A stretch of DNA of 64,000 bases, taken from positions 65,224,001 through 65,288,000 of the forward strand of contig OZ296659.1 of NCBI GenBank assembly GCA_965655095.1. Direction: 5' to 3'. This document shows positions 1,500 through 56,245 of the stretch, one piece after another; the stretch's first letter is position 1, and every line of letters begins with the position of its first letter. Source of the stretch: Haplodiscus bocki. Taxonomy: Eukaryota. A program made the position numbers and the translations under genes. The notes under the pieces were generated by a model. That model worked only from the letters and a program-made list of their open reading frames with translations, was not told where the DNA came from and searched no databases.

Positions 1500-4400
1500 T
1501 CTAATGTTTACAATGAACTAAACATTACAAACTGCAAACAAATATATACAACTAAAAAGCCGTCTGAGTTAGCGACGGGACTTTTGCATTGTGGGAGCAG
1601 AACGCCGTTCACGATGACGTATATGGGTCTTGGCTCCTTCAAAGCTCTTGTACAGAGCTGCCGCGAAACTTGGTAATACTTCCAAACAGGTGCGCTTGCG
1701 TGTGGTGGAAGGAGGACTGTCAGCCACCAAAAATTTGTCCTCCTGAGAAACAGACTACTGGTGTTTTCTGTTTTTTCCCTTGAAAGGACTGGGAGTGCCA
1801 CGGCTACTTCCTGCAAGACCTGGATCGTGTGGCTCAGCCAAACTGAATGGGACACCCCAACTTCAACAATGCTGGAGATGCGCTCTCCAGAACTCCGAAT
1901 GGGTTCGGCGATGTCAGAGAAAGCCACACTCTCCGGAGCAAAGTCACGCACATTAGTGTCTTTTGCAATCCTGTGCCGAACCAAAACGTCATGTCGCCAA
2001 TGCTTCAAACCAACAAATTTAGCGCGGGAACGAAGACAAACACTCTGCCGAGCATCAAGGAAACACGGTTACCGATATCAGCAGCTGAAGCATTTACAGG
2101 ATTGAGCATGCTGATCTCAGACGCTGAATCAAAACTGCGCTGCTCAAAATGACAGTTTTCGACGTAGTCCTGCTTGCGAGCAGCTGTAGAGCTCACCTCG
2201 TGGGCAGAATTGGCCACGAGACCCAAGTTCACAACGCTAGGACAGAGTGGACTTTTGGCTGCTGCGCGTTCAGAGCAGTTGATTGAAAGATCTAAAACAA
2301 ACCGAACTTCAACACCAAAACTACCTCTGACAGCCTCGAATTCATGGATGATACTCACAAAGGATATCATACAGGTTCTGGCGAGCATGAAAATTAGTCT
2401 TGGAGACACAGAAGGACAGGATGTGACGCATATCAGGACGCTTCGTCGTGGTATGCTGTTCCAACTGCCTCTGCTCTCTGGAAAGGTTGAAACTCAGCCT
2501 TAGACGACCCTAGCACAGATCTCTTTATCCGGTTTTTTTCCAAAAACTCAACAAGCTGATGTCCCAAAAAAAATCAATTTCGCCATTGATGATTCCGGGG
2601 CTGAGGCAAGTCAAACCTTGACCAGTGAGAGATCGCGCAGCTGCGGTAGATGAAACATTCCGCACAAGATCATCGAGGAACTGACAAGAGTTTTTGCAAA
2701 ACTCGCACTTGAGTTGGACTTTCTTAAAGCTATTTGTGTGCAGGTGCCTTCCAAGAAATGCTCTTCCTCAATCCGTGGAGGTGCGGAATGTTTAGACAAA
2801 ATGAATGCCTCCCATTTCTCGATGATTGAAAGCGAACAACTAGACTTGAATTTTTTGGAGCAGACAGTAAAAGAATCAGGACACTTTTCGAAAAGCAAGA
2901 TAGGTGTAGTCAGCACTCCGGATAGTTTCGTAAGTTTCCCATTAGAACGCCTGACTGAAAGAAGTTTGAAGGAGGAGTGCTCCTAGAGTTTTCCTGGTTC
3001 ACTCCGTGTCCCCCAAAACAAAAGGAGGAACAGACTAGGAACGGTACTACAATTCTCCAAGTCTACATCAACCAACGGAGGAAGAAAGAAAACAATGATG
3101 GAGTATTGATAGAAACCCCCATTTCTGCCCAGTACGAATTTGAGGAGAAAACTAGTGTGGATACTAGAATAGTCCCAGTAAATCCCAGCAATTCCTGAGC
3201 CAGACACAAAATAAACATGACCTGATGAGCTAAGTGCGAATTCAGCTAGCATATTTCCAAGATCAGATGGATGGGACGAATTTTGATGAGACCAATCTAA
3301 TCGACATAGGGGTAGCCGTCAATGCTTTTCTCTTAAAAAAATAGAATCAGTGTGAAGAATCCAAAAAGTTGGAATAAAAACAAAATAATGTGTTATAATA
3401 TACCGCAAGATGTCTTCATTGTCCTTTTTCTCAGTCTTTTTCACTCTTTCAAAGAAGAGGCAATCGTAGGCCAAACACCCACATTGCTTACATTGCTGGC
3501 CACCACGACAGCTCTGGCATTGTAAAAACTCCAGTTATCAGGATTTTCCTCAGGGCTGTTCACCAAATCATACAGTCCCTGTTTTCAGCCCCCTTGTCCC
3601 AGGTGAGCACAAACAACCACGAGTGGAGACCTCGTTCTTCAAATTCAACGCTGTACCGGTTGTGGGTTTGATTCAGTCTACTGATTGACGTAGGTTGCCA
3701 GGAAATATCTCATTTAAAATGAGTGACCAAAACGGGGGCAAGTAAGAACAAGGGGAACCTAGAAATAACACGGATATTTTTCGAAGCCAACGAGCACTTC
3801 CTCTCGTGACCAGGGAACTTCAACGTCCTTTTTACTGGCATTTAGCGTGAAGTCGCTTGACAGCCTCTCCACGAGCTCATGACCGCCTCTGAGTTGCACG
3901 ATTTCTATCAGGGACAACACTTCTGCCAGCGCTGAAAGATTTGGGCCCGCAGCACCACTCTGGGTGACCAACAAGTCTTCCGTGAAAACAAGCTCACGAA
4001 CTTGACTCATTATTGGAGTCTTCTTCTCGCGCTGACGACCAAGTTCAGCAACTGAGAGCAGGTTGCGCTCAAAATCAGGTACACTTCAACCAAGAGCCTT
4101 GAGGCTCAGACGCTGTTATCGCCGGAAAAGACAAGTTCCCTGGAAAGGCCAAAATAACTCATACGGCCCAAGTGTCACAACGGAAATATCCTTGCCACAA
4201 ACTTGGCAACAAAATAATTTGCCTTCCAGCAGCATCCGTAGGTCTGGTAGCGAAGACGCGTCCCATTTCCTCGCCAGCATATGATTTCTTCATTTTGTTA
4301 GTCTTTTTGTTCGAGATCTTTCTTGCCAGTGACTCCCTGACAAAGCTTGTCCAGAAAATCATTTAAAGCTGTGAACATAACAGAATCATATCACATCTCG

Positions 4401-5400
4401 AACCAGGATGCTCCGTAGCGGATACGGAAAGATACTCACTGCTCATTAGAGGATCCAGTAACTGTGGCTTGTCCTCCTCACAGACTGACCGGCAAAGTGA
4501 TACGAGCTGATGACTGGGAGCATATGTCATTAGTGCTCGTAGAAGCAGGATCTGCAGTAAACTGGTCTACAATAACAAAAATTATTGGAATCACGATCAG
4601 GTGAGGAAACAAACTGGAAAATTCCACCAAAAGGCCAAAACAATACACTCATTGAAAGCCAGAAAATTGTGACTCCGATCAGGACTCGATTAGGGGGACC
4701 TCGGAGATCACTGTCTTTGGCGAGAGGAAACAACGGCCTCCTCACAAAGGCTTTTTTCCTCCGAACCTGACTCTAACTCTGAACAACAATCAAAACTTTC
4801 TCAAGGCCGGATTTCATCGGCAAGTCCTCGTCAGCACCTATGGACAAAGACGTTGCAAAGACGTGAATGCAAAATTAATTTATTTGTTATGAAAACGAAC
4901 TTTCGGAGATATCCATGGGGCCATCTTTTTTGGAAGCTCTGCTTTGCACCTTATCTTCAGAGATCGCTCCAGCAAACCTCAGGTTGTGACCCAAACGTTT
5001 GAATGAACTTTGCTCGGGAACGCTCTGGGCAAGCAGCAGGGTTTCCAGATGAATCATACACTAGAAAACATTAAAGTTATGATGCCATCTTCAATAAATA
5101 GTGAGCACGGAAAACTTAGCTCAAAAACATTACTTGGTGGCGAATACGCACAGCGACGATGAGATAAAACAAAGATTACACAAGGGATGTCCAGAGGTAA
5201 TAACCACCCCACACGAGTCTCACATGAGGGCAACACTCACAGATTCCCTGAAAGTGAACCCCTCAGACTCCTCAACACAAAGCACCGGGGTACTACTCCC
5301 AACCACATACACATAATCTTGTGCTTCACTAACGTCAACAGCAGCACTCTCTTTAGCCATTAATGCAAGAGAAGGTCATCTCCATTCTCGTTTTCCTCTT
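1500..5400 (-). pseudogene. Decayed antisense ORF(s) of unknown function carried inside E1 between integrase and PPT
   Basis: Chain of minus-strand ORF pieces (1508-2008, 2005-2409, 2611-2916, 3759-4010, 4530-4745, 5054-5236) in a GC-richer block. Local similarity to the equivalent block of E2, e.g. shared GAGGTCCCCCT preceded by AF-x-x-x-P codons. Confidence 0.5.
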
Positions 5401-6576
5401 CATAGGGACTGAAGACCGCACAAACTAATTAGCTGTAAGGCAGACAGTTTCGTTCCGCACTCGCTCTGGGCACGCCTTTCTCACCCTTCTTCAAATTTTT
5501 CCAGCTTTTCAACAACTGGGACGTCAACGGGATTAGGGAAAAGTTCTCGCTTGCCAGCTCCAGCAGCATGACGATCAGATTCATCTCGATTTGAAACGAC
5601 AACCTCGGCAAAAACAAAACTTTACTCCGTATTGAATGACATGATTCTTTCCGCTCAAATGGAAGCACGTGGCTATCAAGCTATTAGGCTATCAGTATCT
5701 TACCTGATGGATTCACGTTTTTTGTTCATAAGATTCAATCATTCCAACTATGACTGATTTGTCTGCCACCAGTCATATGAGCATGATTTTTCAAGGAGAT
5801 GATGACGAAACTCGAAAGTTCCTCATTCATAATTTACTTTCCCTGAATTGCCTTAAACACATCAACTTCAGCTATACTGTCAAGTACTCAACTTTATCAT
5901 TTCCAACTTCTACCGCCGAAACATCAAAGCATCTCTCGCCTGATAAAGCTTGCCAAATACCTTTTTGTTCTTTTCATCACTTTTTGCAGTCACTTCACCA
6001 ATTTCAGGAGCTAAGGCAAGCTTCGAGTCAATTTTTTGGATTCCCCTTCTTTTGACTCAGATGTCTATCTTGTAGAGTGGTTGTGGAGAGAACCTTGCCC
6101 AACTAGAAAGAACACCCCAGAGGTTCGCAACTCCATTCAGTTGTAGGGAGCATTGGCACGTAAAGTATTCACGATCTCCTCCATAGCATCTCCGGAGCCG
6201 CAGATTGTGACACGTGAGTCAAGCTCAAACGCGCCTTTAATCCATTATGGCTATGGCAGACAGCAACCGGATTTTGCCCGTCGCCTCAATCTGCCCAAGA
6301 ACCATTTCAGCTTGATGTAGCCCATAACTCCTTCAGCTAACACGGAAGCACAATGGCGCCCTCCCGCACTTGATCACAAAAGAAACAGTTTCATGTTTCC
6401 AAGATATCAAATTCATCAAAGATGGTCAGTTCAGTGAATGCTTGTGAAACGTTCTCAGACGTGGGGACCGTATATTCAGATAAAAGCCGATTACTATCTG
6501 TCGCAACGATCCGATCCTCTACGTTGCCGCCACCAAGAACTTAGAAACAAAATGTGGGCCTGGAATTGTCATCTCT

Positions 6577-9192: not shown

Positions 9193-11236
9193 TGTGATGA
9201 GCGCGTGTTTCCCGGTCAATCTTTCTTTCATTGACCGATAAATCACCTGCCTCAATGAAATTCTTACCACGAGTCTCATTGATACTATTGAAGTCTGTGT
9301 TCGAGTTCAACCTAATTGAGACGGTTATTTGATGGCCTTTGGCATCTCCTGAGAAGAATCTCTGGTTGGGATCAATTACGGTTTTTCCTGGATCCCGTCC
9401 AGAAAACGCGTCGACTGATTTCATGACTAGTTCTAGTCTATTTATCGATGAACAATCCATTGCGGCTAAGATTGAGTCATCTGTTTTGGCCTCGATCGTT
9501 GCCACCGGTTTGTCTACTTCGCTGCTTAATCTGTCAGTAACAATCTCTAAAGTGCTTGTCAATTCATTGGAGAGCAATAAACTGGGACCGAGTTTCTTCA
9601 ATTCCTTGAAGGTACGTTTTCACCTTTTGCAATTGTTCTAATTTCCACCCATTTGTTGTGATTGCCTTATCATCTCATAAAGTCGTCGGCAAGATCACCT
9701 ATTTGGATGAGAAGCCTTCTTTTATGCTGCCTTTTTCGCCAAGTGGAAACTATTACAGCATTTGAATTCAATCGAAATTGAAAGTGTTTCAATTGAAGAA
9801 ATTGAGAGGTAAAACAGGTTCAAAGACAGCAACAAAACAGTTGGAGTCTTTTCAGATAGAACTTGTCGTTACTCTCACACACAAAAGGTATGAAATGCTA
9901 CCGTTGGATCAGTCGGTCGTCGTATCTCCTTCGTTGATTTCCAGTTGGGCATGCAATCAGAGTATGTTGTTCATTGACGTCACAATAGCAACTAAATTTA
10001 TAACTGTGACTAGTTTCAAAGTTAATTTACCGCATTTCTTCGACGTCATTGAACATTCGCTATAAATAAGAATTTAGTGGGAAAACACTAATAGGGTATA
10101 GGTATGTTTTCTCTGAGAAACTTCAACTTTTCATGGAAATAGCATGTTTTAGGTTGTATTTGCATCAACACACGATTAATTGTTGGTCCTGAGGTTTAAG
10201 AGGGGGTCACAGTGCACTAAAAAACATTCTGGGCCTCAAACTTTGATTTGGGCCAAATTGGCCATCTGTTAGCTGAGTTTTCTGATTTGACTACATCAAA
10301 CACCGGCCTAAAAACTTGTTATGACTTTTTTTGAAGATAGCGCCAACATAGCCAGATATCATTAAATACTTGGACTTTGGTGTTCCTTGAGTCTTTTCAT
10401 GTAATATAAAAGTTTAGTATGGTTCGTTCGGTGATTGAAATCAGTTACGTAGGTTAGTTTTTGAAATAGATATAAGTCTTGTAAAAAATACTAGAATAAA
10501 TTATGTCAAAGGAGGTCAAACAACCTACTCAAGACCTGATGTTTAGGTTGCCGATCAGTTTTTGTATTGTCTATTGCTTGCCTTTCTTCTCAGAACCTTG
10601 CTTTTACATTTATCAAATTTTCCCTGCCAAAAATTTAAATCAAACTTCTTTAGGATGTATTAAACTTCATGTAGGGATGTTTTGAGAATATTAAAGCCTG
10701 GCTTTTGAAATCAACTATTCAAGTCAATAAATACAAGAAAACGCGATTTTGACGTTTTTTCTGTCTTCTATAAACTTCTGCAGCATCATGAGTTGTCTTT
10801 AATTTGCTTAGACTGAGGCCATTCAAAGGACCGGCTGCTGACTTGTTTTGCTGCGCTGCTTTATTTTGGCCTGTCAAATGGCAGCCAGGGAAGAAAACTT
10901 TGACCTTGTACTGGTTTAATACTCCTCAAACGCCATTAATGAATAGAATGATGTGATATCGATTTATTAGCTAAAAAGTCTAAATTAGGCCCGATAACTA
11001 GTTGTTTACACTCTAAACTGCACTTTTGAATGCTTCGCTTTTGCGTAGACTTTTTAGTTCGTTACATGGACTCCCCATACTTTCCATTTAATTTTGTGTA
11101 TACATGTATATAAATCCAAGGCTTTACTTTCGTAAAAAGTATAATAAGTAGTACTGCAGTTGATTGTTTATACTCCCATCTTCACCCAGAAACAACGGCA
11201 AACATCCTTGCTTGGACTTGTTGCTTGGATGCCACA
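9193..11236 (-). repeat. Solo LTR of family B (diverged relative of the E2 LTRs), ~2.04 kb
   Basis: Minus-strand start TGTGGCA (11236) and end ...CTCATCACA (9193). Its ORF 9131-9601 (ELVMKSVDAFSGRDPGKTVIDPNQRFFSG...DRETRAHH) aligns with 41353-41673 (ELVFKPTNASSVRSVAGTVLDPDQRDFSG...DRQSLTHH); 10820-10950 aligns with 42910-43040. No convincing TSD. Confidence 0.78.
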
Positions 11237-11725: not shown

Positions 11726-11925
11726 NNNNNNNNNNNNNNNNNNNNNNNNNNNNNNNNNNNNNNNNNNNNNNNNNNNNNNNNNNNNNNNNNNNNNNNNNNN
11801 NNNNNNNNNNNNNNNNNNNNNNNNNNNNNNNNNNNNNNNNNNNNNNNNNNNNNNNNNNNNNNNNNNNNNNNNNNNNNNNNNNNNNNNNNNNNNNNNNNNN
11901 NNNNNNNNNNNNNNNNNNNNNNNNN
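11726..11925. other. Assembly gap (200 N)
   Basis: Run of Ns. Confidence 1.
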
Positions 11926-39250: not shown

Positions 39251-41432
39251 AAGCTAGACGCCCGTAAAGCCCAATAGATTCATGGGGGTCGCTGGTTTCA
39301 AATAATTGTAGCTTCTTCAGAAAAAAAAATGTCATGAACATGTTTCTTGTATCTCGTTTTGCCATACGGCGTCCAAAGTTTAGTACAGGTTTTGTTTCTT
39401 TGCCACAATGTTTACTGACTGAGAAAGGTAATAATAGTTCACACAATTTGGTGCATAATTTCCGGAAAACAAAATATGTATATAAAGCTGTATCACGTAG
39501 AACAATTGGGCGTGAAAAACTAAGTTGAAACATTTTTGGCAAATTTGTTTACGGAAAATTTTTTGTCGTGTGTGAATGTTGTTCTCGCATTCCCGGCTCT
39601 AATCTTGGTCCTGACACTAATGGGTGCCTGAAATTTTTGATAACAAAACACTTTGAGCACTTCGAAGCTTTACGTGGTGAAAACAACAAAAGCGACAATA
39701 GTCGGTTATTTTTCCTAATGAAAGGGCTGACCAACATTTTCACGAATCTCCTTCGTGTCTCCGTCCAAAAATTAAACCATCTTCTACCTAGAATCTAATT
39801 CTTCAATTGTGGGGATATCTTATTTGCTTTCACTTAAACACTCGAAACAGTTTGAAAATTATGCTTGGTCGATTCGTTCCCAGATCCCAAGGGCTCCTGT
39901 CATGCCTCTCAAGGGAACGGGGACGTCTGGGTATTGTTTTTCTGTGAATACTAACAAACGGACATGTTGTATTATTCATAAACTGATCCGTGCTAATTAT
40001 TCATTTCTTTTAAGGTTTCACATTTTTGCACCAAAAATTTACACATTTTGAACCGCAGAGTTGCAATAGTTTACAAAACCACTGTAGACCGTCAGTACAC
40101 TTTCATTAATTGAGATTATTCTGCTTTTTTTAGCCTCAAGACGCTATTAATACTTAATCACTTTGATTATTTAGGGTATGTTGTCAAAAACAAATTTGTC
40201 CTGAATGAATTAGTTGATATTGTTTTAAAAAATAAATTATTTGGAAATTGTCCTAAACTAAACCGATGACATAAGGCAAACAAAAAAGGGGAAAAAGATT
40301 TTCTAAACTATGTCAGCCAAAATTTTACTGTATTCGGTAACTATCAACATAAAAGTGAGATACTGCAAGAAAATTCAGCTTAATTTTACAGCTTTGAGTC
40401 TCATTCGAATTTTTTTTTTTTCAAAATTTAGATTGGAGTGATGTTCTTAAACCTGATTTGAGTGCATGTAATTTCTGAATTTAGCACTTCAAAATTGTGA
40501 ATTTTCAAAGTTAAGTCCAACATTTTGTTTTACCCAGCAACCCAGCAACATTAAACATTTCAAAAAATGAGCTGAAACAGATGTCCCGAACCTTCCTTTA
40601 TCTTTGTTCATCAGATTCCCTTGAATAAACAATTTGGGAAATTTAGAAATATTATAATAAACACTATAACACTCTTTTCGACACTTTTTAGAGTTTCTAG
40701 AAGTAAAGAAGACAATTATGTTGACGTCAAAAATGATTTTCATTTCATATGACATCTGCTGGCGTCTTTTTCCAAACTAAATTTTCTCAAGGCTTTTGCA
40801 CAGGATTTTAAAGGATTACTTGCTTTCTAGTTAGACCCTAGAACTGCGTTTCCGTGGTTTTCGGGCAAAACAATGTGGGAATCGAAACGTTTTAAAGCTT
40901 ACTCGTACTTTTTGACTCTAGAAGTTTTTTGAAACTCCCAGGATCTCCTTAATCATTACCGATACATCGCGACATTTATGTGAGAGTTACCGAGTTTGCT
41001 CAGTTTTTTGTGCTTTTTTTGATGTTGAAAACTGGCGAGAAGTTCAAAACTTCACTCAAAAAATTTCGATTTTCAAAATGAAACTTTTCCTGTAATATCA
41101 ACTTCATCCAGACAGTTGTTTGATTAATTTAATTGCCACTCGGTTACGTAACCGATAGGTAGAAGTGCCAAATGGAGAAAACTGCTCGGTTCTTGGTCTT
41201 TGTAAACATGTACAAATCTTCATTTGCTATTTGAAAGTTGACTACTAAAAGTTTTTGAAATCATTCTACGTAAAACTATCGGTAAAACATAGCTCTGAAG
41301 ATTCTTCCAAAATTGAATGCACTCTTCAACTTTAGATTATGACTTGACGCAATCAAAAGATTTTCAAAAAGAATTCCAACCGAAAGAAGATGTTAATCCT
41401 AAATCTACCAGAACGTAACAAAGAAGAGTGGT

Positions 41433-43342
41433 TGTGATGAGTGAGTGATTGTCGGTCAAAGATCTTCTTATTGACCACCAAATCACCTTCCACGGTAACA
41501 TTACCACGAGTCTCATCGATCTTATTTAAGTCTGAACGTGAATGTATCCTACCTGAAGCGGTCATTTGTTGGCCTTCGACATTACCCGAAAAATCTCTCT
41601 GATCCGGATCCAATACAGTACCGGCAACACTTCGGACTGAAGACGCATTGGTTGGTTTAAAAACCAATTCCACTCAAAGAATCACTAAATTTTCTATCTC
41701 AGTCAATACCGCGTCTTGGGTTCTAGTTTCGAGAGTTGTCATCACATTATCCACTTCACTTCGTACTTTATTAAGAATGTTTTCCTCAAGTGTGGGCATA
41801 TCTACTTGTGGATAATTACTTGCGTTAGATTGTTTGTGTTGTCGGAAGCAGAACCGCTATGTGTTACACTATCTATATTTTCATTCTGAACACCATTTTT
41901 GTTCTGTCCAGTCATATAATGAGTATCTCTTTCACTCAACTGGCTAAAAAGCTTTCGTTTTGCTGTTTCTTCTTCCTGGTAGAGAATATTTTGACATCAA
42001 CAATTGAATTAACCAATAAACTCGATTGATTATACAAACACGAAGGAACAGGGAAAGGATATCAGTCAGAAAAATGAAAAGTGAATAAGTTTAGAGTGTT
42101 TTTTGAAGAATCAACATGTTTTCGTTGTCACTAAAATCGTTTTGTCACTTTCTTGGGTCAACTACCGGTCGCGACTTCTCTCATAAACTCTCATTCGATC
42201 CCCAATCAAAACACGCCGTTTCATGTCGTCACAAATATAACTGCAACTAAAACTGAAGATATAAGGAGCATCAAAGAAATTGTACCGCTTCTTCATGACG
42301 TCAGGCTATGAAAAGCAACAAAACAAAACTGCCCTAATACATATGGTTTTCCTATAACGTAACGTTTCTAGGGAAAATGAAAGTGTTCAATTTTTTGAGG
42401 CTTCAATGAGGTCATCCTAACTAAATAAAATGTTAAAGGGTGTGTTCGTACGCTCTTGGTAGTGTTTTGGGACTGTTTTGGATCTTGAGTCAAAACTGTG
42501 ACGCATGACTGGTGTTTGCCAATATAGCTAAGTCAAAGACTGGCCAACAAAGGTTATTTTGACCGACATTTACACCATAGCCCCAAAGTCATGGAATATT
42601 GGTCAGAATGTGCTTTAACAGCGTCAATATGTTCTTTTCATGTAAAACTAAATTGCTTTACAGTTTCGTTTCCTTAAGTGTAAAATTACATAATTTACGT
42701 ATACGACAGAAATTATAGGAAGCACGTTGAATATATATAATTGATAATTGGTCTTAAATAATTCTGTGTAGGGTAGTTCTATTGAAAAGTTCTTTTTATA
42801 CCCAAAGCCCTTTCATTGTACCAAAACAGTTGCGTACGACGCAATAAAAAACTTTTAATTGGTTGTTTTACTGAGAAAGACGTTATCTATTTGGTAGGTC
42901 ATAAGCCGCTCGAAAAACCGGCCGTTGATTGTTTTTAATTCCTTAAGTTTTTTTTGCGCCGGTCAGAAAGCAGGCAACGCTTGCTATTTTGATCGCGGAT
43001 TAAATTTGAGTGTTAAGCACAGCCATAATTGAGTGAATATGGAATTACGCTTTTGGCGAATTAGAATAGAGTTGCAACAAAATCGGTTGTTAGCGTCCCA
43101 GTACAGTATTTAGATTTGTTCTTGCTTGTTCTTGCTTAAAATTTGCGTCTATCGTATGGATTTACAATACATGTATATTGATATAAGATAGTGTTTCTTT
43201 GAAACATAATATTTATTATTGTTCAATTTTTAGTTGTTGCTTCTGTCTCGGAATAAAGTCAAATATGTTCTGTGCTTTCCGTTGTCGACGTTTCCGCACG
43301 TAAGGTCATATACGTGGCCGTCACCAGCTGCAACTTGCGACA
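41433..43342 (-). repeat. 3' LTR of E2 (family B), containing Gag N-terminal ORF remnant (~41997 to 41433)
   Basis: Minus-strand start TGTCGCAAG and end CTCATCACA; direct repeat of 54323-56245; preceded by an eroded PPT (CAACGGGTG). Confidence 0.9.
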
Positions 43343-44999
43343 CACCCGTTGGGACGAAAGTGAACACGCCGCATTGTGTATCATCTATGAACCCTCGGCG
43401 TTTCACTTGTCGTACCCTAATGCTTCCATGGGGTTGGGGGGTTTGGCATAAAAAAAGGTAGCGGTCTCGTCTTTTACTTGCTCCTAAGGTTTGCCGCAAT
43501 CCAGAAAACCGGGAATATAGTCGTTGTTTTGCAAATGTGAGATTTTGGAGATCTTGTGCAATAGTTGATTTCTCAAGGGGGAGGTATCTTGCGCTGGTTG
43601 AGGACTGGTTTGAATCCAAGGGAAGGGGTTATATTGGGAAGTTATCGAAAGGTGAGCGTTGTCGGCAAAGTTCGATTGGGTGGGGGCCGAGGGAACTGCT
43701 GTTCAGCAGTGCTTCTGCGAGTCTTTGTGCCCAACCTGACCAATCAGCAAAAGTTTCGTCAGCCGTTGAGGAAATGTCAAAAAATTGGGTTTGAAATGTA
43801 CAGTGGGGGGGGGGGGGGGAGGGGGGGCGTGGTGGTTGTGTGCCGTCAAATGTTTCCCCGCGCTGAATGATCACGAGTTGGTTTTTCTGGTTCTTTGCAT
43901 CATAAGAGTTGGCTCTAAAATGTTTTTCGGGGAAGGAGCATGGTGTTGAATCGCTTCCGATAGTTGAAATTTAGACTGGCTCAACAACCATAGTCTTGTC
44001 ATCTTCAAGACCATATTGAGTCGAGTCTTCTGTCCTTTCTTTTCCTTTAAAGTGCTTTAAAGCTTTTTTTGTTCGTGTAATTTCTGAGTTTTTCGAAAAA
44101 TTTATTGAACTGTGAGCAGTTAGAATGTTTGAATGGAATGATTTGGTAATTTTTTGAAGAAAACAATTTTTGAATATTCCCGCGGAAATTGTTGTCCAAT
44201 AGGAGTATCTGATGTGTTTGAGGGAATACTTTGTATTCAACATGAGATTGTTTTGTCATGAATAGGTTTGGCGCCATCTTCACAGCTGTTTTGAAGTAGC
44301 TTTTGATGAAGATTGGGTGAATTGATTGAAATTTATTTAAAGTGATCTGAACTTTTGCTTCGCGCTTGGTCTTTGATATGTCGGTATGACGGTATCAACC
44401 AATCAGAGTTTGTTGGTAAACCTTGAGGAAAATTAATAAAACTGACGGAAGTGAAACGAAGGAAATGTTGTAATTTTCATGTCTTTTAGGGGCTCAAAAG
44501 GTGAAAACTGGCAGACGTGACCGTGCAAAAAATGTTAAATATGTAAACAAAATATTGCAGAATACTGTACAACCATACTGTACAACCACGACATCTTGAA
44601 TTTTGAATTGTTTATTTTGAATTGTTTTATCAACATGATCGTGAAGAGTGTGGATGTTATTTTTGTGTAGTGGAATAATTTGGAATCAATCGTCGAGTGT
44701 GTTTTATCAAGTGGAGAACCTCGATGTTCAAATACAAGCTAGTCAGTATCCAAAGTCAGGTAGCGGTCATTAGTCGGTCAGTTGTCAATTTACGGCCTGG
44801 AATAGAAGAAAAAGTCATCGTGCAGTTTTTGTTGTGTCAATTGACCGGAAGATTTTTTGGAGCCAGTCCCAAAGTAGTAAATATTCTTCTATTGACTCTG
44901 CGAATAGAGTAAGTATTGTTCAGTTTCAATTTGCAACCAAAGAATCTGTAATTGGATCAAGAACTACTTGAAATGTGAAAATTGTTTTTTCACTTGGCC

Positions 45000-47820
45000 A
45001 GAGTGATTTTCTCCTCAAAAAAACAGGTGATTTCCGGTGTCAGGAACGAATCGTGTTTCCGGTATAGGACGTCCATTTGCAAAAATGAGTGAAATTGCGG
45101 GAACATTGCCTCGCAATTTTGTCAAAGTTCTTCATTTAGGTAAGGAATCCAGTTCAGTTGGTGCAGTCGACGAAAAGATGCAGACTAGTGAGATTCAAAG
45201 AGAGACTGGGGCTTTTGCCAAAGTTCCGTTCGCTGCTCTAATCGATTTTGACCCGGAGGTCCCCCTCAGAAATAAGCACTGTTTCAATTTTATGTTGTGC
45301 AAGCAGATTCGAAATATGGCATCCTGGGGAGTGTCAGAGTTGGGCGGCATTTTGAACAAAGCCATCATCTTAGAGCTGACCAAAGATACCGCGATAAATA
45401 TTCTCCCCTAGCTGTTCTCGGAAAGTATACGCGTGTGCTGTATGGAGAAAAGCTGGAGGAGGCTCGGTACAAGTACTTGAATTTTGACGTGCCCGAGCTC
45501 AATCGTAAACGCTTTTACTGTTATGACGTTGTGGAGGGGAAACGTTTTGACTTCTAAAGTGGAAAAGAAAGGGCACACATCCAGTTGCGTTTTTTGATGA
45601 TTCTATTGTGGAATAGAGGAGAGATAAGGGACCTTGAAGAATACTGGACACAAGTGGGGGTGTTGAATGGTAACTCTACCTCGACATCCGGGTTCAGTTG
45701 GGGTCCTGAAAGCATTACTGTAAGTAATTCAACCTCCAGGCAGTAAAAGTAGTGTTGACTTTTTGTTGACCGTTCGAATGGAATTGCATTGGAGTGAATT
45801 GGGTCCTAGGACGGTCAATTAAATAATTTTTTTTCAACATTTTTTTAAGGATTGCTCCATCACTGTTTCCTGTCACTAATGGATCACTTGAAGATCATTT
45901 TGGCTCGGAGCGCGTTGTATTCATTGCTTTTCCGGACTTTACCGAAAATGAAGAGTCTTCACTTGCGATATTGGGAGAGTCAAAGCTTAGTTGACATTGA
46001 AAGTGTTAGATTGTCTCGAGTTGTTCCTGTTGTAAAGGGCGAATTGACTTTGAATGCCCAGTTACAGTCTGCAATCTCTGTGAAACCGCAATTCTTTTCG
46101 TGTCGATGGTGCAGTGTTGAGGGTATGAAAGCACTTGATCAAGATACAGTGCGTCCAGGGGGCGTTCAGTATCCGTTTAGTTAGAAACGTGTGGACATCA
46201 GAAAACTTGCGTGGGACTGCTGCAGATCTTGTTAGTGCGTTTGACTGGCTCTCTGGATGAGATAAGAAAGCACGCCACTTGGCTTTTGAGACAAGTGGGT
46301 CAGTAGTTTTTTCAAGACCTGGTTGTGACTTTTTAGGGTTTCTAAACGGTTATTTTGTAGCCTGTTGAATATCAAGCATTCATTTTGGAGAATTGTCACA
46401 TCTTGGTGGAGGAGATGCTTATTTACTGGGTTCAAATTTTGTATTTTCTTCCGTCAATTGCTCCTTGCCAAGAATCCTAGATTATTATCGGGAAGGTACT
46501 GTGTTTTCTTGATGTTATTTGAACCGCTTGTGTACTACGTTTCGTCTGCTTCATTTTTGTTATTGCAGGGTCAATTAATTGATGATTTTGTACTGGGTGA
46601 CAATTTTTTTATTCTGAGTTGGATTTGTTTCAACGTTTAATGAAGGGCTACCGGGAATGTTTCCGTACAATTCCTGGAGATCGGCGGGAATAGGGCTTCA
46701 TTCTGAATGGGCAGATGATCACTTTCTTCCATCGGGTTCTGCACCGCATTTTGCCCCATCGACATTTGTCTAAGGAGGATGAGTGGGATAACTTGAAATG
46801 CTTCGACTTCCTGGGTGAAGACTCACTGGAAAATGACCAATTTATGCTGAAAGCTTTCCTTCGCGATCGTGCCTTGTCATCCGTTAAAGAGCAAATAAAT
46901 GTGGGGAAAAAGAAAGGGGAAGTGGAACTCACTCTGCTGCAGCCGCTTTCATCAACGCAAACTATAATCCCTTTCACGATGCTTGTCTGGAGTTTTTGAG
47001 GAAAGTATGTGAGGAACTGTTGCGGCAGCCTCCTTGGAAGTCTGATCCTGTTGTTGGTTCTGCCTGCTCCGATTTTTTGTGCCTTTTGAACTCCCTAAGA
47101 TTCAGAACACTGAGTGCTTTAAACAGATTTTCAAAAGTTTTAGTGATCGGCAATGGATTGCAAAAATGTCGGGGCCTGTTGAAGGACTGCTTTATGGAAT
47201 TTGTCAATGACCTGAGACTTGTATATATTGATAAAGCTGGCAAATGTCATGAAGCAGATGATATGATTGCGTTTTTGAGCTGGTGCCCGAACTTAGAACG
47301 GCGTAAACATAGTCGCTTGTTGTCCGAGATGTGCTGTTTGTGTCTGCTACATAGCAGAGTTTGCATCGCTTATGTTGGTTTGGGTTCCGGGAAGCGCCGT
47401 GAGTGAACTGCGGATCTGACCTCTAAAACTTTCAGTTTTCAATGATATTCTATCTCCGCTAGTCAGGTTTGTGGTTTTATAGCAGATCCTCCATTAATTG
47501 CTGCTTGCACTGCTTTGCTGGACGATTTTGGTGATTCTGCCTTGGTGTCAAGCTATGGATTTTTGTGGATTTTATTCAGTGTCAACAGATCTCTTCAAAT
47601 ATTGCAAAACGGCACGAAATTGTTCGATCCCGCTCGGGCCATAATGAGTCAATTGCTGTGTCAAGTACTGTTGTACCCATTGATTTGCCTAAACGAAATC
47701 CAGAAACAGCTGAAGGACCAAAAAAGAAATAAGCAAGACATCGAAAGCTCAGGAAGCGAAAACTTGATTTTGAAAAAGAAAAAACCAAGTGATGGGGCTG
47801 ATTGTTCTCATGATTGAATG
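45000..47820 (+). pseudogene. Decayed antisense ORF(s) of unknown function inside E2 (opposite strand to gag-pol)
   Basis: Consecutive plus-strand ORF pieces 45037-45411, 45297-45557, 45852-46184, 46715-46999, 46996-47406 and 47515-47817. They have globular-protein-like composition (e.g. FMEFVNDLRLVYID..DDMIAFLSWCPNL..EMCCLCL) and are linked by apparent frameshifts. Confidence 0.6.
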
Positions 47821-47999
47821 TACCGAATTGATTGAATTGTTTATTTGCATCTGAAACATTCTTAGAGTAGAGTTTATATACTGCATGTGTTCAATAACTC
47901 TAGATTTCCGAGTAGTTAGAACTGGGATTTAGTCGTAAGTTGTTTTTATCGCCGCGCGTGTTTTTGTCGTCATGAAGATCGTTCGTTTTTGAAGCGGAC

Positions 48000-50900
48000 G
48001 GCATATCATTTATATTCGCGGAGTTAGTATTTTCTGTGGGGTCAAACTATACCTGGGTGCCTTTAATGTGACTTTTGTAAGTTAGTCCAAAATCATCTTT
48101 AGTGAACGCACTTTGACCAACGTCTCGGGAATCTGGGCGGTCGATTACCAAGTCAATGTTAAGATTTTGACTGTTATTAGGTTTTTGGTTACCGAGGTCA
48201 AAGGTAGTATTTTTTTCGATGGTTCTACGTGAGTCAATTACGTTAGGATCCCGGTATGTTAGTGGATTATCTAAACTTGGCTCATCTTCATTTTTTAAGG
48301 CTATAGTGTACTAGTCGTCTTGCGGTAATAACTTTTATTGCAGCGTTGTAATTGTTCCTTTTGATAGGAGTCATGAAGCGGTTGTTCGCTGTTCTTTTTA
48401 CGTAATCTAATTCGGTGTAAACCTTGAGTTTTGATTTTGCTGATTCGTCGAACGAAATAAATATCGTTGGGTAGTACTTTTTCAATCACATAAGGACATA
48501 AGGACTGATCGATGTGCATTCTCGGATTGGGTTTTTTGATACTTGGTAGTCCGTTTTTGGTTGTAGAATGTAATAATGGTTTTTTTTCATGGAGTTGGCG
48601 AAGCTCTAGTTTTTTGTCATATTAACGTTTGCATTAAACTTATGACTGCATGACGTTTTTTTGGTTATGTCGTATAAAATATGCGTTCGTCTAAGTGGTT
48701 CATTGGCGATGTCTATGGTCACTTTTAGGTTAGGATCGAGTTTGAGTCCTAAGTTATGATCAAGTATGTTGTAGGGGACTCTGCCGTGGAACGCCTCTAG
48801 TCGGCTCACATCTCATGATTGTGTAGTAAGACGTTTTTGTTGTTTAAATATACCAAGGACAGAAATTTGTGCCATTATTTTCGGTATTCACCTGATGCCA
48901 CTCTAGGTGAAGTTTTTGTTGTGGCATGTGCTCTTTCTAGGACTCCCATTGTTTTTGCGTGTTTACTGGTTGCGTGTTTCAACGTAATACTCAATACTGC
49001 TGCTATCTCACTAATGACATCCGTATGAAAACTGATCTTTTGTCTGTAATCATTAGTGTGGGTAGATACTCGTGCCTTGTCATGATATCTATGTTGACTT
49101 TCTCTGTGTTTACAGCAGTGAGGGTAGAGACTTGGTATGCAAAAGCGTATCTAGAAAACACGTCTATTGCTCTGCCAATGTTCTCGTAACCTCCACTTGG
49201 TGGTAGTTGTGAGAGTAGGTCTATTTGCATGATACCTTCCCTTCCCATGTGCCATTAGGCACGCTGATTCTTTCAAATATTAGTTTCATGTTATTGATTA
49301 GCTTTTCTTTGATGCATGTTTTACATTGTGATAGCCAAATTCGTACGTACTTCGCTATTGATGGAAAATAGTATTTGCGTTGTAATTCTTGCATCATTTA
49401 GGATATGCCACGATGTTTGCTTAGTGTACCATGGAATGATTTCAAAGGACTGCTAGTAGTTGTGCAGGTACTAATACTTGTAGGTGACTAATCTCACCTA
49501 CTTCGTTGTAGTGTTGTGTTTGAGGTATGTCTTCTTTGAGAAATATGCGTTTTCTATTTCGGGAGTAGTGCATGTATCTTGCATCGTTGATTAGTACTTG
49601 GTCGTCAAATGGTAGTCCGAGCACTTTTTGCTTGAAGTTCGGGAGGGTAGTGTCGGAATCTTGTTCTCTTAGTATTCGTGAGTGTTTATTAAAATGTGCC
49701 CTGTCTATAATTGACAGTTCTTGGGTGGGTCAATGTTGTAGTAGGAAGCTTTCGTTGTGACCGGAGGTTGACTGGATATTGCGTTGCGAAGGTCAGCTTT
49801 GGGCTGCCAGATTTCTTGTTCGGGGACTTCTATTTGGTCATCGTTGTTTTTTGAAGACTGGTACTTCTTGTGATATACCTGTTGATCCTATGTCGACTTC
49901 AATGTGTTTGATACTTATGTCTTCTCGGATTTTTAAGATTGCTTTTTTCGTTTGGGTCAGCTTCAAAACCTGATAGGAATACTGCCGTAGTGTTCATTTT
50001 CCTAAGAATGTGTACTATTGCAAAATTGAACTGCAATACAAAATCACATGCATCCTAAAGTGTTGGCGATTTTGTTTACGTTTGGAGAACTCTTGTGATC
50101 ATTTTCCTGTCAGTCATGATAATGGTGGTTTGGTGGCGCCCCAAAAGATATGTCCAAATTCTCTTAAAGCTAAGCAAATAACTAGAAATTCTTTTGCATA
50201 GAATGTTATTTCGATTTGGAACCGTATAAATGGTTTTGACCCCTATGCGGCTGGTGCATAAGTTTTCCTCACTGATATGTATTTTTGGTTGGGATCGTTT
50301 TCAATTAGGACTGCGTGTCTGGCTGCTTGGAAGCTAGTGCCCGTCATCAGCACTAGTTGTTTGTTTGGAAGCGGGTGTCTAAGGGCAAATTGTCGAAATG
50401 TGACTAATGTGCTGCTCAGCCTTTGGAATCCATTCGTAAGTTCTTGAGTATTACTAATTTTGCCTTCTGCATCAGCGTTTTTAACAATTGAAAAAATGGT
50501 GTAAATATTTCTGCTTGTCTGTGCATGTAATTTCTGTACCAGTTCAAAAATCCGAAGAATCGTTGTAAAACTTTTTTGGATCGAAAGAATTTGACTTCTT
50601 CAAATAAAGTTGTATTTTTGATTTTTTGTGGTTCAATGGTTCGTCCAAGGTAGTCGATTTGCTGTTCTCCAAAGTGGCACTTCGCCATTGTTGTTTTTAA
50701 TCTGGTTTTTGTATGCACGCAAAAACTGTTTTCAAGTTGCAAAATATTTGTTGAGCATCGTTAACTGCGATGCCTATGTCGTTGACGCATTGCGCGGTTC
50801 GGTCCACTTTTTTGACTAGATCAAGATATTGTCGCATAAGGCTGGAAAGTGCTGAAAGAGCTCTGTTGAGGCCTCGGGCCAGTCTTAAATATGCAAAAGT

Positions 50901-52400
50901 TCGAATTGCAAAGTTAAATGCCAGCTTCTGTTTTGATCTCTGCTAGGCCTTTGTAAGCAGTGGTACGCTTGCCAACAATCTAATTTGCAAATTTTTCTTC
51001 CCAACCATATGTTCGGCAGCATCCGGCAGCGTACTGACGGGATGTTATTGTTTATATAGTCGTCAGCGATAACATTATTGATTTTTCTCAAGTTAATAAA
51101 CAGTCGGAATTTTCCATTGGGTTTTCATTGGGCGGAAATATGGCTAGCGAATTTACTAAAAAGTGTTGTGATGATACCATACTTGTGTAACAGAGCTAAT
51201 TCTACCAGTATATCTTCTTTGAGGTTCAGTGGAGCTCGAAGACATTGAATATATCTTGCTCTATCGTCAATGGGTCTCAACTTGACCTTGAAATCTTTAT
51301 TGATGCGGATCTCGAATCGATGCTTGGTAAAAATGTCATCGAATTGGATTAGTAGGTTTTGTATTTTCGCTTTTGTCTGTTGATCAACTATTGAATCTGT
51401 CCAGTCAAAATTGGATAAGAATTGGACACCTGAAATTTAGTTTATTTGGGTATCGAGTCCCTCTAATTCTTCTAAGGCGTATAATTCCGTGAGGATACGC
51501 TTTGGCATAGGTGTCTGATTGCTGGGATTGCTTGGACTCTGCGGTGACTGGAACCAATAGGTCTCAACGATGGTATCTGACCTGGGGATTTAGAGCAAAC
51601 TATTTACATATTGTAGGGCGTTGTCATGGTTATTGTCTAGCAGATATCTGATGGGTGTTGGGTGGAATGTCTGGATATATTCCATCTGTTCTGGAGTCAG
51701 TTTGAGAAGTTAGCGATGTGAGTTGTTTTTTGAGTGTATAAGGGTGACCTTGAAAGATATTGATCTGAGTTATATGTTGCTGATTGTTACTAGATCCTAT
51801 AGCTGGGCAGATAAAAAGCTCGTCGTTGTTTTCAGTTCGTTAGAATGTTTTTAAATTTTTTTGTGTAGATAGGGATTAACTTAAATTATGTTCTGTTTTC
51901 TGGGTTGGGCTATAAATTTCTATGGGTTAATGAGAGGTTTGTTATTGTTTGGGTACGAACAGTTGGCGTCTTTGAGCTGTATGGGAAAGGACGGGAAGAT
52001 AAGAAATCCTTGTCTCATATCCAATACCATGCCATTGAGTTGCAAGAAGAAGAGTCCAGAAAACGGATTGGCTAAGTTGGACATAACTATGAAACGCTCT
52101 ACAAATGTGATGTCACCCACTTCGAATTGCACTTCAATTGCTGCAATAGGCGTTTCTAATTGTCCGTTCGCCACCATGATTTGAAAATCTGGTAAGGGAC
52201 CCTCTTTCTGGATAATTGGGCTGCAATTTCATTGCGTTTTTCAAAGTCGGCCTCTAAGATGGCCTTGGATAGGGAGCTCATATCGATTAGGATGTCAATT
52301 GTTAAATGTATTGGAAAATGCAACATTTCTCTTTTGTTTTTTTTATGATGGTTTGCCGAAAATGGTAGAAAATTTATACTTCCACCGAGGATTGATTTCA
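48000..52400 (-). pseudogene. Gypsy pol pseudogene: aspartic protease, reverse transcriptase, RNase H, integrase
   Basis: PR: IDILIDMSS (eroded DTG) and MVANGQLETPIAAIEVQFEVGD. RT: CKLDCWQAYH, FASRTFAY.RLARGL, CVNDIGIA (eroded YxDD), AKCHFGEQQIDYLGRTI. RH: LVLMTGTSF..YAKEFLVI. INT: H-x-H..CKTC zinc finger, IDVFSRY..ITDK core, SPYVIEKVLPND. Confidence 0.93.
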
Positions 52401-53039
52401 GCTGTAGGGCAGTTTCTTTTATCTATGACTGATTGTTGCGTGGATTGGTTTGGATGAAAAAAAATTGGAAAATGAGATAGTGTTGATGTGCCGGGCAACT
52501 GAGGATTAATTGTCCATCACAGGTCTAGTACCGCGTGTCATATTGTGTTTGACACGTGTGAGTCATCAATGATGTCGTCGTCCTCCATTTGTTCTAATGG
52601 TTTGCTATAGTTATGGCGATATTCTGAATTTTCTTGATCCCATATGTGGTCCTTCCAATATGGTCAAATCCGTATTGGTGCTCTATGAAATTCTCTTCGA
52701 AGACTTCAATTTGTGGTAACGGTCTGAATGTGGAATCAAAGTTTTATGTAGAATCGATTCGGTATTAGGGTAAGGTTTTTTTATTACGTGCAGCTACTTA
52801 TTTCGAATAACTTTGGCTTTTCCCATCTGCTGCTTCCAGACAAAAGATGGTTTTCTATTACAAATAGTTTGTTGAGTTCCATGGTAGTTATTGGGTGTGT
52901 CTGATATGATGTAACTTCTTGTTGTGGTTACATCTGCTCATTGGATTTGTGGATTTGGTAGTTTAAAGAATTTTTTTAATTCGATGGGTGTGTTTTTTGT
53001 TTAGATGTGCTTTCTGTGAGGTTGTCTTCGTTGTCGCCG

Positions 53040-54089
53040 GGCTATGAACGTTCTTTAAAATTTTGTGGTGTATTGATGGCGTTGGGACCGTTCCAAAATT
53101 TCCCTGGTGGATGGTTTGTCCTTTGACAGCGTGGACAAGAGAAGTGTTTTCTAGGTGTGATAGTTTTTACTTTTGGGTGGGGTCCTGTTTTTGTTCTTGT
53201 TTTTTTCCGAAATCTTTCAGAAAAGTCTTTGATTAGATGACACAATTTTTATAGTAACAGCGTAATGTCTTGAAAAGGTCAGGTTTGTTTCCGTTATCCT
53301 TTGTTAACGCTACTGGCTATAGTGGCTATGTGGGGTTCTCCACCATTTTCTATGCTACTAAGTTCTGGTTCTCTTTCTAAATGGGTTACTATCTGGTCGT
53401 ACGTACCTTTTTCGAGGTATCTCGAATTAATTGATCTTTTCAGATGCGGAAGCATTTTGGTGAATAGGAAACTGGCGATCGTTTATTGGGTTTAATCACA
53501 AAATGCTCATTCTGCCTACTCATTTCATCAAGTTCCTCTAAAAAATCGGAAAGTGATTTGGTATTCGGTTCAAAAGTGAGCTTGCGCCACTTATGTTTAT
53601 CAGTTGCTCGTGATTCGAGTTTTACGTATTTCCCTCGAAATACTTTGAATGAGTCCTCAGTTGTTCTTTTGTTGGTAGCATTAATATTGCGAATTGTTTT
53701 CATTGCCTCTTTCCTCGAATGCGCATAAAAATGATTGATTTTTATTGCCTCAGTCTTTCGGTTCTATTTTGAGCATTGCATGGAAGAAGTCCTGAAATTT
53801 TCTTGAAATCCTCGTTTTTGCAGCGAACATTAAGCTGTTTTTGGATGCTGGTTTTAATTTGACAGATGTTTCGGGTCGTTGCTGGGATGCAATTCCAGCG
53901 ATTGCCTCGGGTAATCTGTTAATTGAAGTGTAATGGTCATTAGATGTTCGTTTGTTTTCAAAAAAGGTGATGTGGTGTCTTGTGACAGTTGTCTAATCAT
54001 GTTTTGTGGTTATGTGGGTTCACGGTAAGTTGAAACGGGCCCAGAGAGGAATTCGGGAAATTCTTGTGGGGCATTTTGTCCTGTCGCCT
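53040..54089 (-). pseudogene. Gypsy gag pseudogene (capsid region and zinc knuckle)
   Basis: VFRGKYVKLESRATDKHKWRKLTFEPNTKSLSDFLEEL and eroded CCHC knuckle CPRCQRTNHPPGKFW; located between PBS and protease. Confidence 0.82.
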
Positions 54090-54128
54090 TGTGATTAGTG
54101 TGTGATGGTAGGTCAAGTCTTATGTCGA
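54078..54128 (-). other. Remnant 3' end of the original 5' LTR (54090-54128) plus eroded primer-binding site (AGGCGACAGGAC)
   Basis: Plus-strand TGTGATTAGTGTGTGATGGTAGGTCAA matches the LTR terminus TGTGATGAGTGAGTGATTGTCGGTCAA at 23/27 positions and directly abuts the gag-side sequence. Confidence 0.75.
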
Positions 54129-54322
54129 TGACTACTAAAAGTTTTGAAATCATTTTACGTAAAACTATCGGTAAAACATAGCTCTGAAGTTTCTTCCAAA
54201 ATTGAATGCACTCTTCAACTTTAGATTATGACTTGACGCAATCAAAAGATTTTCAAAAAAGAATTATAACCGAAAGAAGTTGTTAATCCTAAATCCACCA
54301 AAACGTAACAAAGAAAAGTGGT
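54129..54322. repeat. 194-bp duplicate of the external flank of the 3' LTR (41239-41432)
   Basis: TGACTACTAAAAGTTTT...AGTGGT is nearly identical at both positions. Confidence 0.95.
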
Positions 54323-56245
54323 TGTGATGAGTGAGTGATTGTCGGTCAAAGATCTTTTTATTGACCACCAAATCACCTTCCTCTACGGTAACATTACCAC
54401 GAGTCTCATCGATCTTATTTAAGTCTGAACGTGAATGTATCCTACCTGAGGCGGTCATTTGTTGGCCTTCGACATTACCCGAAAAATCTCTCTGATCCGG
54501 ATCCAATAAATTACCGTCAACACTTCGGACTGAAGACGCATTGGTTGGTTTAAAAACCAATTCCACTCAAAGAATCACAAAATTTTTTATCTCAGTCAAT
54601 ACCGCGTCTTGGGTTCTAGTTTCGAGAGTTGTCATCACATTATCCACTTCACTTCGTACTTTATTAACAATGTTTTCCTCAAGTGTGGGCATATCTACTT
54701 GTGGATAATTACTTGCGTTAGATTGTTTGTGTTGTCGGAAGCAGAACCGCTATGTGTTACACTATCTATATTTTCATTCTGAACACCATTTTGGTTCTGT
54801 CCAGTCATATAATGAGTATCTCTTTCACTCAACTGGCTAAAAAGCTTTCGTTTTGCTGTTTCTTCTTCCTGGTAGAGAATATTTTGACATCAACAATTGA
54901 ATTAACCAATAAACTCGATTGATTATACAAACACGAAGGAACAGGGAAAGGATATCAGTCAGAAAAATGAAAAGTGAATAAGTTTAGAGTGTTTTTTGAA
55001 GAATCAACTTGTTTTCGTTGTCACTAAAATCGTTTTGTCACTATTTTGGGTCAACTACCGGTCGCGACTTCTCTCATAAACTCTCATTCGATCCCCAATC
55101 AAAACACGCCGTTTCATGTCGTCACAAATATAACTGCAACTAAAACTGAAGATATAAAGAGCATCAAAAAAAATATACCGCTTGTTCATGACGTCAGGCT
55201 TTAAAAGCAACAAAACAAAACTGCCCTAATATATCTGTTTTTCTTATAACGTAACGTTTCTAGGGAAAATGTTTGTGTTCAATGTGTTGAGGCCTCAATG
55301 AGGTCATCTTAACTAAATATAAGGTTAAAGGGTGTGTTCGTACGCTCTTGGTAGTGTTTTGGGACTGTTTTGGATCTTGGGTCAAAATTGTTACGCATGA
55401 CTGGTGTTTGCCAATATAGCTAAGTCAAAGACTGGCCAACAAAGGTTATTTTGACCGACATTTACACCATAGCCCCAAAGTCATGGAATATTTGTCAGAA
55501 TGTGATTTATCGACGTCAATTTGTTCTTTTCATGTAAAACTAAATTGCTTTACAGTTTCGTTTCATTAAGTGTAAAATTACATGATTTACGTATACGACA
55601 GAAATTATAGGAAGCATATATATATAATGCGTTGAATATATATAATTGATAATTGGTCTTGAATAATTCTGTGTAGGGTAGTTCTATTGAAAAGTTCTTT
55701 TTATACCCAAAGCCCTTTCATTGTACCAAAACAGTTGCGTACGACGCAATAAAAAACTTTTAATTGGTTGTTTTACTGAGAAAGACGTTATCTATTTGAT
55801 AGGTCATGAGCCGCTCGAAAAACCGGCCGTTGATTGTTTTTAATTCCTTAAGTTTTTTTGCGCCGGTCAGAAAGCAGTCAACGTTTGCTATTTTGACCGT
55901 GGATTAATTCTGAGTGTTAAGCATAGCCATTATTGAGTGAATATGGACTTACGCTTTTGGCGAATCAGAATAGAGTTGCGACAAAGTCGGTTGTTCGCGT
56001 CCCAGTACAGTATTTAGATTTGTTCTTGCTTGTTCTTGTTTGAAATTTGCGTCTAGCGTATGGATTTACAATACATGTATTTTGATCTAAGATAGTATTT
56101 CTCTGAAACATAATATTTAATCTTGTTGAAGTTTCAGTTGTTGCCTCCGTCTTGGAACGCCGGAAATATGTTCCGTCTTTCACGTTGTGGACATTTTGAC
56201 ACGTAATGTCGCATACCAGCCGGTAGCAAGCGGCAGCTTGCCACA
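54323..56245 (-). repeat. 5' LTR of E2 (largely overwritten by 3' LTR sequence)
   Basis: Direct repeat of 41433-43342; starts TGTGGCAAG on the minus strand. Confidence 0.9.

What the first reader, a model, noticed from the sequence alone, without database searches (positions are those of the whole stretch)
45000..47820. Homologous antisense cassette in the second Gypsy family (E2): candidate undescribed protein(s)
Seen: six consecutive plus-strand ORF pieces (~2.8 kb) antisense to gag-pol. They include a helical, Cys-containing segment (KSDPVVGSACSDF...FMEFVNDLRLVYID...DDMIAFLSWCPNL...EMCCLCL). Patchy similarity to E1 occurs in the same order: AFAKVPFAALIDFDPEVP vs AFVRRPLFPL..EVP with shared GAGGTCCCCCT; TLNA..GGVQYPFS vs TLNA..GFEKYPCYF. 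Inference: retention in two families with very different LTRs implies the cassette is ancestral and was functional. I cannot assign a family.
Basis: partly seen in the sequence, partly recalled or inferred. Interest (0 to 1): 0.75.

Follow-up and report, generated by a model that had tools for sequence, protein, structure and literature searches.

The report
Spliced antisense gene inside Gypsy retrotransposons
This stretch is a decayed copy of an extra gene, conserved by selection, that a large family of retrotransposons carries on its opposite strand; it is predicted to have four exons and likely descends from a DNA-transposon enzyme that lost its cutting ability and would now act as a DNA-binding helper of the element.

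The parts
45085..45719 (+). Coding exon 1 of the antisense gene (ATG at 45085). About 1.33 kb is missing at about 45212 (635 nt here against 1916-2055 nt in young copies); a frameshift and a stop
45283..45370 (+). CxxC...H...H zinc finger, BED/SPIN-DOC-like; frameshifted and degenerate in this copy
45720..45848 (+). Predicted intron 1 (phase 0). Donor GT is present; the canonical acceptor is lost in this copy. Same position in the E1 family
45849..46294 (+). Coding exon 2 (162 aa in young copies; 40 nt shorter here). Predicted helix-strand-strand-strand-helix-strand-helix, RNase-H-like order, low confidence
46295..46360 (+). Predicted intron 2 (GT..AG, phase 0)
46361..46495 (+). Coding exon 3 (45 codons; one stop here)
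46496..46568 (+). Predicted intron 3 (GT..AG, phase 0)
46569..47817 (+).
41239..43342 (-). 3' LTR of E2 (ends approximate)
43245..44090 (-). Remnant of a second extra ORF, sense to pol (328 codons in young copies), running into the 3' LTR; no Pfam match
47894..52967 (-). Decayed pol (protease-RT-RNase H-integrase order shown on a young relative)
53312..54686 (-). Decayed gag; its start lies inside the LTR
54129..56245 (-). 5' LTR of E2 (ends approximate)
1650..5700 (-). Distant homolog of the antisense gene in E1 (E1's pol is on +). Stop-poor frame with synonymous excess; deletions at about 3596 (316 columns) and about 2920
4017..4220 (-). E1 zinc-finger region
3678..3791 (-). E1 predicted intron 1, at the same protein position as in E2 (GT in 3 of 4 and AG in 4 of 4 E1-family copies); ends approximate

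Best explanation
E2 carries a decayed copy of a selected antisense gene of this Gypsy lineage, predicted to be spliced from four exons into a protein of about 1,300 aa that likely derives from a hAT DNA transposase without its catalytic residues and would serve the retroelement as a non-cutting DNA-binding accessory factor, most likely one that keeps the element expressed against host silencing. SHOWN: the position between pol and the 3' LTR on the opposite strand; open frames and GT/AG sites in young copies; purifying selection in that frame; a colinear homolog with a shared intron in E1; and exchange of the gene as a block between elements with near-identical pol. INFERRED: (1) A hAT element inserted in reverse orientation into an ancestral Gypsy and lost its inverted repeats and catalytic motifs (about 0.6). 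(2) Its introns survive because the genomic RNA reads the other strand, so they are never spliced before reverse transcription (about 0.9). (3) It is transcribed from its own promoter near the 3' LTR (untested). (4) The protein binds DNA through the zinc finger and the helical domain (about 0.65). (5) Its role is anti-silencing or trans-activation (about 0.4) rather than integration targeting (about 0.25) or something else.
Confidence: 0.58

Rival explanations
1. The spliced antisense gene is real and selected but is not transposase-derived: a captured host gene or a new zinc-finger plus helical protein.
For: All sequence-level hAT tests outside the zinc finger are null. The structural hits are within noise. 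BED-like fingers occur in many proteins (own knowledge).
Against: Two separately folded exons both pick Hermes, in the right order. No longer, single-copy host-like homolog was found (which the tool calls weak evidence). Distant homologs are themselves multicopy (clusters of 20-84 members).
Confidence: 0.25
2. Same origin, different job: the protein tethers or imports the integration complex (target-site choice or nuclear entry) rather than opposing silencing.
For: Variants are not tied to LTR type. A basic C-terminal tail is seen in the alignment. Nuclear roles are proposed for plant antisense ORFs (PMC7264820).
Against: Integrase is nearly invariant while the gene varies up to 42%, which is hard to square with a tight integrase partner. 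Insertion-site bias was not tested.
Confidence: 0.2
3. A still-active transposase, or a passenger DNA transposon hitchhiking in the retroelement with no benefit to it.
For: Transposase-like domain order; the genome holds many hAT elements (718 candidates for PF05699).
Against: No inverted repeats flank the gene in 4 of 4 copies scanned. The by-eye positions of the second Asp and the CxxH motif hold other residues. Selection acted while the gene sat at a fixed place in diverging Gypsy lineages.
Confidence: 0.05
4. One reading: independent insertions or chance ORFs in E1 and E2.
For: Direct tBLASTx is not significant, and the quoted motif pairs are spurious.
Against: Same place and orientation, colinear profile hits, a shared intron 1, and frame-specific selection in both families.
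Confidence: 0.03

Closest known systems
Antisense additional ORFs of plant Ty3/Gypsy elements (Retand TRP28/PF04195, maize Grande gene23, rice RIRE2; PMC7264820, PMC11963269)
   Same: Antisense ORF between pol and the 3' LTR, present in most copies and conserved; DNA-binding or nuclear regulatory role proposed, function unknown.
   Different: No PF04195 match here. This gene has three conserved introns (the word intron occurs 0 times in PMC11963269), a BED-like finger and a likely hAT origin. PMC7264820 says the origin of most plant aORFs is unknown and that similarity to other TEs is lacking.
hAT transposases (Hermes; Buster/SPIN group) and their domesticated derivatives (ZBED, SPIN-DOC, DAYSLEEPER; names recalled, or from search listings)
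   Same: BED-like finger, then a predicted RNase-H-like core, a conserved Trp after it, and a helical domain that aligns weakly to Hermes 332-590.
   Different: No TIRs; catalytic motifs apparently lost; a long disordered N-terminal part of about 500 aa; no Pfam hAT hit. It is domesticated by another transposon, not by the host.
VANC anti-silencing proteins of Arabidopsis VANDAL elements (passages in PMC12859917, PMC13547354)
   Same: Accessory gene of a transposon, captured from another source, diversifying fast among related families.
   Different: Different fold origin (MAIN-like) and a DNA transposon host. Cognate motif arrays and co-variation with the element's non-coding DNA were not seen here. 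Activity is untested.
Retroviral antisense proteins (HTLV-1 HBZ, as cited in PMC11963269)
   Same: Regulatory protein encoded on the antisense strand, with a promoter near the 3' LTR.
   Different: No sequence or fold relation shown; much larger; no env gene was identified in this element.

Membership tests
Ty3/Gypsy LTR retrotransposon (carrier) | Long direct terminal repeats | tested here: met
   2.1 kb, 94% identical in E2; 98.3-99.9% in 7 young relatives
Ty3/Gypsy LTR retrotransposon (carrier) | gag, then protease-RT-RNase H-integrase order | tested here: met
   Pfam on a young relative; maps colinearly on E2 at 30-63% identity
Ty3/Gypsy LTR retrotransposon (carrier) | TG..CA ends, primer-binding site, short target duplication | tested here: met
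   TG..CA and TGG-starting PBS in 4 of 4 young copies; 5-bp duplication in 3 of 4, the fourth lying in a CA repeat. E2's own outer ends were not resolved
Antisense additional ORF of LTR elements (aORF-3R, Retand type) | Antisense ORF between pol and 3' LTR, kept in most copies | tested here: met
   11 of 11 sister copies; 9 young copies
Antisense additional ORF of LTR elements (aORF-3R, Retand type) | TRP28 (PF04195) domain | tested here: not met
   No hit
hAT transposase | N-terminal BED-type zinc finger | tested here: met
   C 17/20, C 19/20, H 17/22, H 19/22; zf-BED E 0.023 and SPIN-DOC finger E 5e-4, both below curated cut-offs
hAT transposase | RNase-H-like catalytic core | tested here: inconclusive
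   Secondary-structure order fits but pLDDT is 41.5; Hermes is Foldseek rank 1 at E 0.34
hAT transposase | DDE triad and CxxH motif | tested here: not met
   At positions placed by eye: Asp in 1 of 35 after strand 4; no Cys/His pair; C-terminal Glu in only 15 of about 41. The placement is not backed by a significant alignment
hAT transposase | RW motif | tested here: inconclusive
   Trp 24/26, preceded by Arg 12 or Lys 12 of 27; Trp also present in the one E1-family copy translated
hAT transposase | Helical insertion and C-terminal dimerization domain (PF05699) | tested here: inconclusive
hAT transposon | Terminal inverted repeats with 8-bp target duplication | tested here: not met
   No flanking inverted repeat in 4 of 4 copies
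VANC-type anti-silencing factor | Binds arrayed motifs in its own element and removes silencing marks | not testable with these tools
   Needs binding and chromatin data; no arrays seen

The most novel reading that the evidence does not exclude
A retrotransposon lineage domesticated a cut-and-paste hAT transposase, introns included, as a catalytically dead DNA-binding accessory gene. It keeps several ancient variants of that gene that are swapped as a cassette between otherwise near-identical elements, as expected of an anti-silencing factor in an arms race with the host: a VANC-like system in a non-plant-type Gypsy element, and a concrete origin for an antisense ORF.
Probability: 0.3. Interest if true: 0.85.

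Novelty: new variant of a known kind. Interest (0 to 1): 0.66.

Why it matters
The origin and function of antisense extra ORFs in LTR retrotransposons are stated as unknown (PMC7264820). Here is one with a testable origin (class II transposase), conserved introns that only an antisense position can preserve, over a thousand candidate copies, young copies with open frames, and natural variants up to 42% apart on the same pol background. That makes what such genes do directly testable by RNA-seq, DNA-binding assays and variant-against-insertion-site comparison. A class I element domesticating a class II enzyme was not found in nine literature searches. These cover only the open-access library, and Repbase-type annotations were not searchable.

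Tried and rejected
Direct E1/E2 tBLASTx: not significant. Pfam on E2-family fragments and on young exons: nothing assignable. NCBIfam: 0 of 6. PDB by sequence: only noise. Search for longer, spliced homologs: none among 8000 candidates, weak evidence. ESM Atlas: all scores under 0.9; Plavaka and Transposase_21 clusters at 0.84 are leads only. Viral fold library: no E <= 0.001, so no support for a viral origin. VIA searches with the exon-2 model and the VIA second look for exon 4 did not list Hermes. hhalign and PSSM tests against 7 host hATs: null outside the zinc finger (67-69, 104-106, 110, 111; one search timed out). Three-chain fold of exons 2, 3 and 4: no verdict. Sequencing runs: no RNA holder listed; the four runs cover the introns and show no exact splice joint among the 15 of 125 joints listed, as DNA would, so nothing on expression. 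Context of distant homologs: alignments too diverse for the search for related loci; P0173 found nothing in metagenome or viral contigs. So whether the roughly 30%-identical homologs sit in LTR elements is open. A possible 5'-UTR intron at 44909-45028: donor-like sequence is shared but the acceptor is not conserved, so it was dropped. Earlier scan notes: none. Two paper searches used an acoel host as a guess from memory; no call tests the host.

Full report
CONTEXT. The window lies on contig C12 of a 1.5-Gb genome. E2 is an LTR element at about 41239-56245 with 94%-identical LTRs. Its gag and pol are on the minus strand, and a young relative shows the Gypsy domain order by Pfam. E1 is a second, older element at the window's start, with pol on + and integrase about 40% identical to E2's. 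The host was not identified.

OBSERVATION. Six + frames of 100 codons or more lie in 45031-47817. A DNA search gave 44 matches (40 of 87 candidates scored). All 11 sister copies fetched hold about 1.3 kb at window 45212 that E2 lacks. Across 12 aligned old copies one + frame is stop-poor (about 1 stop per 100 codons against about 3-12 in most other frames) from about 45.1 to 47.8 kb, with gaps where introns were later placed.

YOUNG RELATIVES. Protein searches with two natural frames gave 1559 and 1366 first-look candidates; 132 and 150 were scored, giving 133 and 150 matches, mostly in frames of 400-740 codons. Ten were fetched, chosen for long frames or divergence. Seven showed LTR pairs of 98.3-99.9%, one showed no pair, one was old, and one output was cut. 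Their layout is gag, pol, antisense gene, a second sense ORF, 3' LTR. In L141 the sequence shows ATG, three phase-0 GT..AG introns and a stop: 668+162+45+422 = 1,297 codons. All six splice dinucleotides are canonical in 9 of 9 young copies and in 7-10 of 11 old ones, against 5 of 306 intron-interior dinucleotides shared by 17 or more of 21 copies. All four exons are in frame and stop-free in 6 of 9 young copies. In E2 the exons map to 45085-45719, 45849-46294, 46361-46495 and 46569-47817, each with stops or frameshifts. Splicing itself was not observed.

SELECTION. In two unsaturated young pairs dN/dS is 0.03-0.04 for the zinc-finger part, 0.20 for exon 2, 0.17-0.20 for exon 3, 0.11-0.14 for the exon 4 core and 0.28-0.46 for the disordered N-terminus. 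Pooled pN/pS is lowest in the antisense frame in all 7 segments, in both young and old groups. E2 against its most distant sister gives 0.20-0.36 over the zinc-finger part and exons 2-4; against close sisters it is about 0.4-0.6 for most segments (0.98 for the short exon 3 in one pair), as decay after insertion would give.

E1. A first-exon profile built without E1-family members hits E1 sisters at iE 8e-9 and 2e-7 and E1 at 0.009. The stronger E1 hit (2e-9) is partly circular, because that profile holds one E1 sister. Exon-2 and exon-4 profiles hit E1 sisters in order on the antisense strand (iE 0.009; 3e-4, 4e-4, 0.007), with one reversed-DNA control at 0.008; they do not hit E1 itself at iE under 1. 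Five E1-family copies show a stop-poor antisense frame with synonymous excess from about 5700 to 1650. Intron 1 sits at the same protein position (GT in 3 of 4, AG in 4 of 4).

WIDER DISTRIBUTION. The exon-4 profile finds 961 representatives at E <= 0.001; 150 were shown. Some are 24-30% identical over the full domain and stand for clusters of 20-84 members. The best matches of two of them in this genome are only about 30% identical, so they likely come from other genomes. None is named, and their context could not be fetched.

MODULE SWAPPING. Among 7 young copies RT and integrase differ 0-6% in amino acids (pS 0.41 or less). Between subfamilies the antisense exons differ 14-42% with pS 0.71-1.04, and RT and exon-4 distances do not correlate (rho 0.08 over 21 non-independent pairs). 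Sliding windows confine the divergent block to the gene. In one pair it is 28-42% inside, against 2-13% over the neighbouring sense ORF and spacer and 4-12% over pol. Deeply split variants therefore persist and move between backbones. Gene type does not follow LTR type, which argues against strict cognate-LTR pairing.

MECHANISM. Shown: position, open frames, splice signals, selection, shared ancestry, swapping. Inferred: reverse insertion of a hAT into an ancestral Gypsy; retention of introns because the genomic RNA is the other strand; an own promoter near the 3' LTR; a DNA-binding protein useful to the element. I favour anti-silencing or trans-activation (about 0.4) over integration tethering (about 0.25), because fast, deep diversification of an accessory gene on a conserved pol is what conflict predicts. 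This is an analogy to VANC, not a test.

LITERATURE. [quoted passage not shown] PMC11963269 (passages): 97% of Retand clusters carry antisense TRP28. PMC5408684 (one passage): no antisense coding ORF, intron or transposase is mentioned. PMC12859917 and PMC13547354 (passages): VANC. Other papers were seen as search listings only. Nine searches showed no report of a hAT-derived spliced antisense gene in an LTR element; the first returned 0 papers. No supplements were read, and subscription journals and Repbase were not searchable.

VERDICT. The gene and its selection are well supported, its origin moderately, and its function is a hypothesis. Interest 0.66.

Noticed in passing
window 43245-44090 (-); L141:2550-3533 (-): A second extra ORF, sense to pol (328 codons in young copies), runs into the 3' LTR. 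It is mostly low-complexity with one CxxC and has no Pfam match. It also occurs as distinct variants (2% or 35-39% apart between copies).
   Followed up: partly
L157+L158 (C9:45.71-45.72 Mb): Young element (LTRs 99.9%) whose gag 1-201 is fused in frame to pol 505-1730. It lacks the capsid region and protease but keeps the antisense gene with open exons.
   Followed up: partly
L066+L067, L068-L071, L077+L078; matches window 5827-4528 and 3227-2917: High-copy gag-only derivative of the E1 family (1026 candidates; LTRs 93-99.4%) that keeps only two pieces of the antisense region and lacks the zinc-finger part.
   Followed up: partly
window 41434-41793, 54279-54686, 9176-9553: The LTRs contain the start of gag; a further gag-like LTR piece lies at about 9.2-9.55 kb.
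   Followed up: no
L074+L075 (C3:13.53-13.55 Mb): Tandem pair of E2-family elements, 98-99% identical, both lacking pol (window 46714-53149).
   Followed up: no
L055 (C3:110.61 Mb): E2-family copy with a 1.7-kb tandem duplication covering exon 1 of the antisense gene, 86% identical.
   Followed up: no
window 33800-39100: Four or five dispersed repeats of 80-420 nt, 63-75% alike, spaced about 1-2 kb; possibly a local multi-exon or tandem gene array.
   Followed up: no
L159-L166: The genome holds several hAT families with single open frames of 591-641 codons, one with many same-scoring copies (624 codons), and a frameshifted Buster-type element.
   Followed up: partly
window 11726-11925: Run of 200 N.
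   Followed up: no
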